From a virus (taxonomy: Duplodnaviria > Heunggongvirae > Uroviricota > Caudoviricetes), in the IMG/VR virus record IMGVR_UViG_2778261569_000004: a DNA stretch of 13,057 nt; one strand, written 5' to 3'. Position numbers and translations under genes: made by a program. How positions within the stretch are numbered: the first letter of the stretch is position 1; each line of letters opens with the position of its first letter. Below, piece by piece: positions 11,903-13,057 of the stretch. Under the pieces are notes generated by a model. It saw only the letters and a list, made by a program, of their open reading frames with translations, did no database searches and was not told the origin of the DNA.

Positions 11903-12094
11903 ATGACCGATACCAGCCTGATTCCTGAGAAAGAAGTGATGAACAAGCTCGGTGTTTCATCACGTCAGACAATCTGGAACTATACCAAACGACACGGATT
12001 TCCGAAGCCAGTCAGAACCCACCCCAAATCATACCTTCGTGAAGCTGTTGAAGGGTGGATTCTTAACGGTGGCGTTAATCAGAAATGCTCCTGA
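11903..12094 (+). CDS. xis: AlpA-type excisionase / DNA-binding regulator
   Basis: AlpA-family pattern (EVMNKLGVSSRQTIWNYTKRHGFPKPVR...W). The 3' end overlaps the integrase 3' end, convergently. Confidence 0.55.
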   Translation: MTDTSLIPEKEVMNKLGVSSRQTIWNYTKRHGFPKPVRTHPKSYLREAVEGWILNGGVNQKCS

Positions 12095-12499
12095 TGTGCC
12101 AGAACAATTTATCAGCGTGAAGCTCATACGCTTTGCGCTGAGCCTCTATCCAATCGTGTTTATTGTATACGGACATTATCCCGCCAAGTTCATGACCGAG
12201 CATTCGCTCAGTAACATGAGGCTCGACATTCATCTCGGACAGACGTGTAACAAGCGTTCTTCTGAAATCATGTGTTCGCCAGTAACCTAGATCCATCCCT
12301 CCCCTTATTCTATTTACGAATCGGTTGGCTGCAGCGATGCTGATCGGTTTGTTTATGTCTTCTCCAGGGAAAAGAACATCATTGTACGTTGTCATGGCCT
12401 TTTCGAGAAAAGGCTTAATTTGTTCGAAGATTGGACGACGGATAACATTACCCATCTTGCTATGCTCTTTCGGTACGGTCCATACGTTGTCCAGCAGGT
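12075..12499 (-). pseudogene. int: Tyrosine integrase, C-terminal catalytic fragment only; N-terminal part displaced by an IS insertion
   Basis: Catalytic motifs HDFRRT and LGHELGGIMSVYNKHDW (Tyr nucleophile) present. The reading frame runs upstream without a stop to the IS terminus at 12500; the conserved box I Arg and the N-terminal domain are absent from this side. Confidence 0.75.
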
Positions 12500-13057
12500 T
12501 GAACCGCCCCGGGTTTCCTGGAGAGTGTTTTATCTGTGAACTCAGGCTGCCAGATCATCGTTTCCGATGGAAGCATAATAAGCTTTTTCTGCTTCTGCCG
12601 GAGGAGTATGGCCCAGCCTTCCCAGCAATCGTCGATTGTTATACCAGTCCACCCACGTTAGTGTGGCCAGTTCCACTTCTGCACGGTTTTTCCAGCTCTT
12701 ACGGTGTATTACCTCCGCTTTGTAAAGACCATTGATGCTCTCAGCCATCGCGTTGTCATACGAGTCGCCTGTACTCCCTGTTGATGCCAGTAATCCGGCT
12801 TCTTTTAGTCGCTCCGTATAGGCCAGTGACACATACTGAGAGCCTTTATCGCTGTGATGGATGGTGCCAGACGGACGACGGGCCCACAACGCCTGCTCCA
12901 GCGCATCCAGCACGAATGTCGTTTCCATAGACGATGAGACCCGCCACCCCACGATGTATCCGGCAAACACATCAATGATAAACGCCACATAGACGAAGCC
13001 CTGCCATGTGCTGACGTAAGTAAAATCAGCCACCCACAGCTGGTCAGGTCGTTCTGC
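12500..13057 (-). mobile_element. IS3-family insertion sequence (IS629/IS1203-like), partial; the element runs off the window end
   Basis: Terminal inverted repeat begins TGAACCGCCCCGGGTTTCCTGGAGAG at 12500, which I recognise as an IS629-type end. It contains an OrfB transposase with the DDE motif region HHSDKGSQY. Confidence 0.8.
12542..13057 (-). CDS. IS3-family transposase OrfB (C-terminal part; N-terminus beyond the window)
   Basis: ORF track 12542..13033 and the frame stays open to the window edge. Motifs ADFTYV...[21 protein letters not shown] and HHSDKGSQY...YDNAMAES are typical of the IS3-family DDE integrase core. Confidence 0.8.

What the first reader, a model, noticed from the sequence alone, without database searches (positions are those of the whole stretch)
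12075..13057. Integrase gene truncated by an IS3-family insertion, implying a cryptic or excision-defective prophage
Only the C-terminal catalytic part of the tyrosine integrase remains contiguous. Its frame runs without a stop straight into an IS terminal inverted repeat (TGAACCGCCCCGGG… at 12500), whose transposase lies on the same strand further on. The rest of int must lie beyond the IS, outside the window. This would lock the prophage in the chromosome while leaving the immunity and early genes intact. IS629-type elements are characteristic of some pathogenic E. coli lineages, which hints at host background.
Basis: partly seen in the sequence, partly recalled or inferred. Interest (0 to 1): 0.6.

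Follow-up and report, generated by a model that had tools for sequence, protein, structure and literature searches.

The report
IS629 insertion splitting a prophage integrase
A copy of the common insertion sequence IS629 has landed inside the integrase gene of a P22-like prophage of an O111-type Shiga-toxin E. coli, which very probably stops the prophage from cutting itself out; this kind of event is ordinary and well documented in these bacteria.

Summary
Window 12075-12499 (- strand) is the last 425 nt of a 1179-nt tyrosine integrase gene and is 100% identical to the intact gene of E. coli O111 strains. It covers aa 253-392 plus the stop. At 12500 the 25-bp right inverted repeat of IS629/IS1203 begins. 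All 558 IS bases in the window are identical to annotated full-length IS629 copies, and orfB lies on the same strand as int.

The window is a complete 13,057-bp draft contig (NJZZ01000060.1), so it ends inside the IS because the assembly broke at a repeat.

I predicted the reciprocal product for a simple insertion with the 3-bp duplication typical of IS629: Int aa 1-252 followed by LNRPGNPGD, read from the IS left end. That exact protein exists in NCBI assemblies. Versions built with 0, 2, 4 or 5-bp duplications do not.

The retained fragment lacks catalytic Arg239 and both DNA-binding domains. The other piece lacks Lys266, His328, Arg331, His354 and the Tyr363 nucleophile. Int is therefore dead, and the prophage (99.9% identical to a sbcB-dacD P22-like prophage of O111:H8) is predicted to be locked in.

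The same int gene carries IS629 at three other sites in O157:H7 genomes. This is a known kind of event and of low interest.

The parts
12075..12499 (-). 3' fragment of the prophage tyrosine integrase gene. It holds 2 nt of codon 252, codons 253-392 and the stop. It retains K266, H328, R331, H354 and Y363, but not R239, the core-binding domain or the arm-binding domain.
   Evidence: 425/425 identical to the intact int of O111 11128. Pfam PF00589 positions 55-169/172. Residue mapping by alignment to lambda Int 1z1b/5j0n.
12497..12499 (.). GGT (ACC on the int strand). This is the presumed copy of the 3-bp target-site duplication next to the right end of IS629.
   Evidence: Other IS629 copies show 3-bp duplications: CTT, CCT, CAC and GAT. 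Only the reciprocal product built with a 3-bp duplication exists in the protein collection.
12500..12524 (-). 25-bp right terminal inverted repeat (IRR) of IS629/IS1203.
   Evidence: Identical to the feature annotated 'inverted repeat from right end of IS629' in AP000400.1. 22/25 identical to the left repeat.
12500..13057 (-). Right-hand 558 bp of a 1310-bp IS629/IS1203 element, in the same orientation as int. It is cut off by the end of the contig.
   Evidence: 558/558 identical to full-length copies in O157 Sakai and O111:H8 08-4455. The window equals the whole contig NJZZ01000060.1.
12542..13057 (-). C-terminal 171 codons plus stop of the IS629 transposase OrfB (DDE / rve catalytic core).
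   Evidence: Pfam rve E 2e-28 and rve_3 E 8e-12. Translation.
11903..12094 (+). Intact 63-aa AlpA-like helix-turn-helix gene, the probable excisionase / directionality factor. It is the last gene of the PL-side early operon. It converges on int and overlaps the int 3' end by 20 bp.
   Evidence: ORF. Weak Pfam Phage_AlpA hit, below the curated cut-off (E 0.003). Annotated as WP_000132739.1 'helix-turn-helix transcriptional regulator' in all relatives.
4006..4722 (+). Context: the immunity repressor cI (238 aa, HTH_3 plus Peptidase_S24), apparently intact. Cro, cII, the replication genes and the N-to-erf early-left genes are also present.
   Evidence: Called genes and Pfam hits for L009, which is the window reversed (window coordinate = 13058 minus L009 coordinate).

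Best explanation
A single IS629 (IS1203-type, IS3 family, 1310 bp) transposed into codon 252 of the integrase gene of a roughly 40-kb P22-like prophage. The prophage sits between sbcB and dacD in an O111:H8-type Shiga-toxin-producing E. coli. The IS is in the same orientation as int and made the usual 3-bp target duplication (ACC on the int strand).

The insertion splits Int in two. One piece is a 261-aa N-terminal product holding the arm-binding and core-binding domains and catalytic R239, followed by 9 IS-encoded residues. The other is a promoterless C-terminal remnant holding K266, H328, R331, H354 and Y363. Neither piece has a complete active site. Site-specific excision (attL x attR) and re-integration are therefore abolished, although the putative excisionase, the repressor and the early genes remain.

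Shown: the junction, the identity of both partners, the loss of an intact int reading frame, and the existence of the reciprocal junction product in public assemblies.

Inferred: that the reciprocal product comes from the same genome as the window, and that the prophage is locked in. If its replication and packaging genes still work, SOS induction would then give in-situ replication instead of excision.

The window ends inside the IS only because short-read assembly breaks at this roughly 40-copy repeat.
For: - Junction and identities.
- The intact int is 392 aa and lies next to sbcB in O111 genomes.
- The window is a whole draft contig.
- IS629 copies elsewhere give 3-bp duplications.
- The predicted reciprocal fusion protein (Int 1-252 + LNRPGNPGD) is present exactly, on 3 NCBI contigs. 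The 0, 2, 4 and 5-bp versions are absent.
- The window-type contig is seen in 2 samples plus 1 similar place, which is a similar count.
- Catalytic residues fall on both sides of the break. Pfam domain limits.
- This int allele is single-copy in the 579 complete genomes that carry it, so no near-identical paralogue would complement it.
- Int-disrupted lambdoid prophages of O157 Sakai do not circularise: PMC2669165.
- P22 delta-int is locked in, replicates in situ and gives low titres: PMC8575938.
Against: - The left IS end and the 5' part of int are not in the window. I could not fetch the contigs that carry the reciprocal product, so its link to this assembly rests on matching counts and on the rarity of the allele. 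The allele is absent from 5,426 complete genomes.
- The excision defect is not tested experimentally.
- O111:H8 strains commonly carry the IS-excision enhancer IEE (PMC9943667). IEE can remove IS3-family elements and restore genes (PMC9397093), so the lock may be leaky at the population level.
- The late genes of this particular prophage are unseen.
Confidence: 0.88

Rival explanations
1. The junction is one end of an IS629-mediated rearrangement. This could be an adjacent deletion, or an inversion or deletion by homologous recombination between two of the many IS629 copies. In that case the 5' part of int is lost or lies elsewhere in the chromosome, and the prophage is truncated as well as int-defective.
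For: O111 genomes carry about 40 IS629-related places. Related O111 and O157 prophages show several IS copies and IS-associated deletions (PMC7430833). The window itself cannot show the other IS end.
Against: The exact reciprocal fusion protein expected for a simple insertion with a 3-bp duplication exists on 3 NCBI contigs, while the other junction versions do not. The number of window-like contigs is about the same.
Confidence: 0.06
2. The junction is an assembly artefact: a chimeric join of an int-containing read path to a collapsed IS629 repeat. The gene would then be intact in the real genome.
For: The window is a draft short-read contig that ends inside a high-copy repeat. The junction is absent from all complete E. 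coli genomes, from phage records and from GTDB species representatives.
Against: The break coincides to the base with the true IS629 terminus, which a random chimera would not do. The same contig occurs in 2 samples, with 1 further similar place. The reciprocal junction product exists independently.
Confidence: 0.02
3. The insertion is real but the prophage is not effectively locked. Excision could still occur at useful frequency in two ways. IEE-promoted precise excision of IS629 could restore int in subpopulations, or an Int of the same specificity could be supplied in trans by a co-resident or superinfecting phage.
For: IEE is reported in O111:H8 (PMC9943667). IEE-mediated excision of an IS3-family element restored lacZ in STEC O121 (PMC9397093). 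Prophage-prophage complementation is documented in O157 Sakai (PMC2669165). The putative excisionase gene is intact.
Against: Complete genomes that carry this int have it once only. The int-disrupted Sakai prophages gave no detectable circular form, although that strain carries many other prophages. The presence of iee in this strain is unknown.
Confidence: 0.15

Closest known systems
IS629 / IS1203 (IS3 family), as annotated in E. coli O157:H7 Sakai (AP000400.1) and in O111/O157 RefSeq genomes
   Same: The 558 bp present are 100% identical, including the annotated 25-bp right inverted repeat and the OrfB C-terminus. The inferred 3-bp target duplication matches other copies.
   Different: Nothing differs in sequence. 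Only the insertion site is particular to this strain group. It is absent from 5,426 complete E. coli genomes.
int::IS629 alleles of the sbcB-integrated prophages of O157:H7 (FRIK2455/2533/2069; Z852/Z1811; 9.1_Anguil), annotated by PGAP as partial integrase pseudogenes
   Same: The same integrase gene (99% or more identical), the same chromosomal site next to sbcB, the same IS, and the same consequence of a split int.
   Different: The insertion positions differ: 225, 294 and 375 nt of int remain on the 5' side, against 754 nt here. In two of the alleles the IS has the opposite orientation. The host prophage backbone is also different (O157, at the sbcB site where Stx2c prophages are reported, PMC5359411), whereas here it is a P22-like prophage of O111.
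Int-disrupted lambdoid prophages Sp3, Sp11 and Sp12 of O157 Sakai, and engineered P22 delta-int
   Same: The functional class is the same: a temperate prophage with an inactivated integrase. These do not circularise (PMC2669165). P22 delta-int is locked in, replicates in situ, amplifies flanking DNA and shows raised lateral transduction (PMC8575938).
   Different: Those phenotypes were measured experimentally, and nothing has been measured for this prophage. The Sakai prophages have further defects. The late region of the present prophage is unseen.
P22-like prophage between sbcB and dacD of E. coli O111:H8 strain 7-16 37A (NZ_CP077519.1)
   Same: It differs from window 1-12499 by 7 SNPs and no indels. 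It has the same early-gene order and shares the frameshifted early gene.
   Different: Its int is intact. Its IS1203 copy instead sits in a DNA-ejection protein gene.

Membership tests
IS629/IS1203 (IS3 family insertion sequence) | Characteristic terminal inverted repeat (TGAACCGCCCCGG...) at the element end | tested here: met
   12500-12524 is identical to the annotated IS629 right inverted repeat of AP000400.1.
IS629/IS1203 (IS3 family insertion sequence) | DDE transposase (OrfB) with an rve integrase-core domain, ending about 40 bp inside the right end | tested here: met
   12542-13057 (-) hits Pfam rve at E 2e-28 and is 100% identical to reference copies. Only the C-terminal 171 aa lie in the window.
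IS629/IS1203 (IS3 family insertion sequence) | orfA, a programmed -1 frameshift into orfB, the left inverted repeat, and a total length of 1310 bp | not testable with these tools
   These features lie beyond the contig end. Identical-sequence full copies in L002, L003 and L018 have them according to their annotation.
IS629/IS1203 (IS3 family insertion sequence) | 3-bp target-site duplication flanking the element | tested here: inconclusive
   The second junction is not in the window. Indirect support: only the reciprocal fusion protein built with a 3-bp duplication exists in the protein collection. Four other copies show 3-bp duplications.
Tyrosine recombinase / phage integrase (PF00589, with a DUF4102-type arm-binding N-terminus) | Match to the catalytic-domain profile | tested here: met
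   The fragment matches PF00589 at E 3e-11, but only at profile positions 55-169 of 172. The intact homologue matches positions 2-168 and also has Arm-DNA-bind_3.
Tyrosine recombinase / phage integrase (PF00589, with a DUF4102-type arm-binding N-terminus) | Complete catalytic set R-K-H-R-H-Y in one polypeptide | tested here: not met
   Alignment to lambda Int places R239 (lambda R212) upstream of the break. K266, H328/R331, H354 and Y363 lie downstream. The gene here is therefore a pseudogene fragment and does not encode a functional family member.
Excision-defective (locked-in) prophage | No functional cognate integrase available in the cell | tested here: inconclusive
   The cognate int is disrupted. 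In complete genomes this int is single-copy. The rest of the source genome could not be examined.
Excision-defective (locked-in) prophage | No attP/attB formation on induction | not testable with these tools
   This needs PCR or sequencing after mitomycin C treatment. Precedents are in PMC2669165 and PMC8575938.

The most novel reading that the evidence does not exclude
The most novel reading is that the rest of this P22-like prophage is still functional. The replication genes are present in the window. The packaging and head genes are present in the closest relative. In that case the natural int::IS629 allele would make the prophage a permanently 'locked-in' element. On SOS induction it would replicate and package in situ. 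It would then act mainly as a lateral-transduction engine for the chromosome next to sbcB/dacD, as engineered P22 delta-int does. IEE-promoted IS629 excision could serve as a rare reversible switch back to a normal phage.
Probability: 0.08. Interest if true: 0.5.

Novelty: already known. Interest (0 to 1): 0.1.

Why it matters
The finding has little significance beyond strain-level bookkeeping. IS629 insertions are a main, well-described source of prophage decay and strain polymorphism in EHEC, and the same int gene is already annotated as IS-split in several O157:H7 genomes. The allele could serve as a lineage marker for a small group of O111-type isolates. It also predicts that this particular prophage cannot excise or transfer as a phage. 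The only wider angle is that naturally int-dead P22-like prophages might promote in-situ packaging of neighbouring host genes.

Tried and rejected
- I searched for the exact int|IS junction in 5,426 complete E. coli genomes, 50,697 phage records and GTDB species representatives. None had it. The six 'at least 80% coverage' hits were O157:H7 genomes with the IS at other positions.
- I tried to fetch the contigs carrying the predicted reciprocal fusion protein P0001.
- I tried to scan genome contigs for the predicted reciprocal DNA junction.
- I searched the literature for the WGS accession NJZZ00000000. Nothing was found, so the strain name and serotype rest on sequence similarity to O111:H8 only.
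- I considered whether the int frame forms a translational fusion starting inside the IS. I rejected this because there is an in-frame TGA at 12555-12557 and no start codon before the ATG at 12455.
- I considered 4-bp, 0-bp and other duplication lengths. I rejected them on the basis.

Full report
**What is in the sequence**

On the minus strand, window 12075-12499 is an open frame that ends in a stop codon at 12075-12077. It matches the Pfam Phage_integrase family, but only from profile position 55 onward (E 3e-11).

The same DNA occurs uninterrupted in many E. coli genomes. In O111:H- strain 11128 it is the 3' end of a 1179-nt gene for a 392-aa tyrosine recombinase (WP_001007947.1). That gene lies directly beside sbcB. 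The window is 425/425 identical to that gene's last 425 nt.

A four-way alignment shows that identity ends exactly between 12499 and 12500. The intact gene continues ...GGT|CAAATTC, and the window continues ...GGT|TGAACCGCCCCGGGTTTCC.

**The inserted element**

From 12500 to the end of the window (558 bp), the sequence is 558/558 identical to two references. One is the copy of IS629 annotated in the O157 Sakai VT1 prophage record AP000400.1, including the feature annotated 'inverted repeat from right end of IS629'. The other is a 1310-bp copy in O111:H8 strain 08-4455, which PGAP labels 'IS3-like element IS1203 family'.

The transposase OrfB C-terminus occupies 12542-13057 on the minus strand and hits Pfam rve at E 2e-28. 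It is on the same strand as int.

The int frame stays open for 19 codons into the IS, until a TGA at 12555-12557. There is no start codon upstream of the ATG at 12455, so no fusion protein initiates inside the IS.

**Where the break falls in the protein**

The insertion lies after nt 754, which is the first base of codon 252. I aligned the intact protein with lambda Int (PDB 1z1b/5j0n, E about 1e-7). This places the first catalytic arginine at R239 (lambda R212), which is upstream of the break. The other residues lie downstream:

- K266, aligned with lambda K235.
- The H-x-x-R box at H328/R331. The HMMER alignment is offset by one residue here, so this assignment follows the conserved motif.
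- H354, aligned with lambda H333.
- The nucleophile Y363, aligned with lambda Y342.

The arm-binding domain (Pfam Arm-DNA-bind_3, residues 4-85) and the core-binding region are also upstream.

So 'only the C-terminal catalytic part remains' is nearly right. The retained piece is an incomplete catalytic domain, and neither half of the split gene has a full active site.

**Why the window stops inside the IS**

A look-up of the 126-aa ORF (12075-12455, minus strand) returned, among other records, contig NJZZ01000060.1 of draft assembly GCA_002462085.1. That contig is 13,057 bp long. Its reverse complement equals the window.

The window is therefore an entire short-read contig. It ends in IS629 because this element is present at about 40 places in O111 genomes and breaks assemblies. 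The missing part of int cannot be reached by reading further along this record.

**Testing 'the rest of int lies beyond the IS'**

Four complete IS629 copies in fetched loci are each flanked by a 3-bp direct duplication: CTT, CCT, CAC and GAT.

For a simple insertion here, the reciprocal junction on the int strand should read ...GAATTTGACC|TGAACCGCCCCGGAAATCC. The 5' gene piece should then encode Int residues 1-252 followed by LNRPGNPGD and a stop. I built that protein, plus versions assuming 0, 2, 4 and 5-bp duplications. I then looked all five up by exact sequence.

Only the 3-bp version is in the collection. It comes from NCBI assemblies, on 3 contigs, the longest 30.7 kb. The window-type contig is recorded in 2 samples plus one similar place, which is about the same count.

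I could not retrieve those contigs. The link to the same genomes is therefore an inference. It is supported by the fact that the junction is absent from all 5,426 complete E. coli genomes, all phage records and the GTDB species representatives. So rare an allele would not be expected to turn up separately in unrelated assemblies.

I put a simple insertion at about 0.9, an IS-mediated rearrangement at about 0.06, and an assembly chimera at about 0.02. The break coincides to the base with the true IS terminus, which a chimera would not reproduce.

**Context**

Window 1-12499 differs by 7 substitutions and no indels from a prophage of O111:H8 strain 7-16 37A. That element is a roughly 40-kb P22-like prophage between sbcB and dacD. 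It has a lambdoid early region. It also has P22-type portal, scaffold, coat, gp4/gp10, needle, ejection-protein and tailspike genes, plus an acyltransferase gene.

The window carries these early genes:

- cI (238 aa, HTH plus S24 peptidase).
- cro and cII.
- An O-like replication protein and a DnaB-like helicase.
- N and ral.
- erf and an anti-RecBCD gene.
- ead/Ea22-like genes.
- An intact 63-aa AlpA-like gene, the probable excisionase.

The AlpA-like gene converges on int and overlaps its 3' end by 20 bp.

A 267-aa early gene of unknown function (10371-11173) is frameshifted by a 1-bp deletion after 10585. This defect is shared with strain 7-16 37A.

**Mechanism and consequence**

Excision of a lambdoid or P22-like prophage needs its cognate Int. 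Here Int is split into two inactive parts. In the 579 complete genomes that carry this int allele, it is present once only, apart from IS-split cases. A near-identical helper copy is therefore unlikely.

Experimental precedent supports the predicted phenotype:

- The three lambdoid prophages of O157 Sakai with disrupted int (Sp3, Sp11, Sp12) gave no circular form (PMC2669165).
- P22 delta-int is 'locked-in'. It replicates in situ, amplifies flanking host DNA, yields low titres and shows increased lateral transduction (PMC8575938).

I therefore hold the 'excision-defective' inference at about 0.8.

Two caveats apply. First, O111:H8 commonly carries the IS-excision enhancer IEE (PMC9943667). IEE can remove IS3-family elements and restore a gene (PMC9397093), so rare revertants are possible. 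Second, the late genes of this particular prophage are unseen. In the nearest relative an ejection-protein gene is itself IS-disrupted.

**Comparison with what is known**

This is a standard event. IS629 is described as a main driver of prophage diversification in EHEC (PMC4587872; PMC5359411).

The very same int gene is IS629-split at three other positions in complete O157:H7 genomes, where RefSeq annotates it as a pseudogene:

- FRIK2455, FRIK2533 and FRIK2069.
- Z852 and Z1811.
- 9.1_Anguil.

In O111:H8 08-4455, an IS629 copy sits inside the neighbouring AlpA-like gene. This echoes a published IS629 insertion in the excisionase of an sbcB-integrated Stx2c prophage (PMC5359411).

Both partners here are 100% identical to known sequences, and the record is already public. 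Only the insertion site is particular to a small strain group. I rate the finding 'already known' with low interest.

**Most novel reading not excluded**

A naturally locked-in but otherwise functional P22-like prophage could act as a lateral-transduction engine, with IEE as a reversible switch. I give this about 8%.

Noticed in passing
Related loci L004-L008 and L010-L012, at int nt 701-706 (outside the window, in the missing 5' part of int): The int gene has a G6 run in codons W236-G237, just before catalytic R239. In eight loci from different strains the run is G7. These loci show 3-14 other nucleotide differences in the seven that were aligned. The extra G frameshifts int into 243-aa and 126-aa ORFs. 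This is why the 126-aa ORF of the window is called on many contigs that have no IS. It may be a slipped-strand hot spot or a homopolymer sequencing error.
   Followed up: partly
L002 (O157:H7 FRIK2455), L014 (Z852), L015 (9.1_Anguil), L003 17729-19038 (O111:H8 08-4455): IS629/IS1203 has hit this int/xis module repeatedly and independently. There are three other sites within int in O157:H7, leaving 5' pieces of 225, 294 and 375 nt. There is also one site inside the AlpA-like xis gene in an O111:H8 strain (duplication CCT, equivalent to window 12036-12038). This suggests either a preferred target region or relaxed selection on the module.
   Followed up: partly
window 10371-11173 (+): An early-region gene of unknown function, 267 aa in O111 11128 (WP_000208130.1), is frameshifted here by a 1-bp deletion after 10585. 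The same defect is present in O111:H8 strain 7-16 37A, where PGAP calls it a pseudogene.
   Followed up: yes
window 12075-12094: int is transcribed convergently to the PL-side early operon. Its 3' end overlaps the 3' end of the AlpA-like gene by 20 bp. So int is not expressed from PL as in lambda and must have its own promoter on the sbcB side, outside the window.
   Followed up: no
window 1 and 13057 (the contig ends): The window is a whole 13,057-bp draft contig (NJZZ01000060.1, GCA_002462085.1). One end lies in IS629. The other lies in the nin region, inside a DUF7301-family gene, at the edge of a region whose genes are widespread among lambdoid prophages. Both ends therefore look like repeat-induced assembly breaks, not biological boundaries. 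The cause of the break at position 1 is an inference.
   Followed up: partly
L017 36082-37295 (O111:H8 7-16 37A) and other O111 hits: In sister O111 strains, the same P22-like prophage carries IS1203 copies at different places: in an ejection-protein gene, and within or next to the helicase region. This prophage is therefore decaying through different IS hits in different strains.
   Followed up: no
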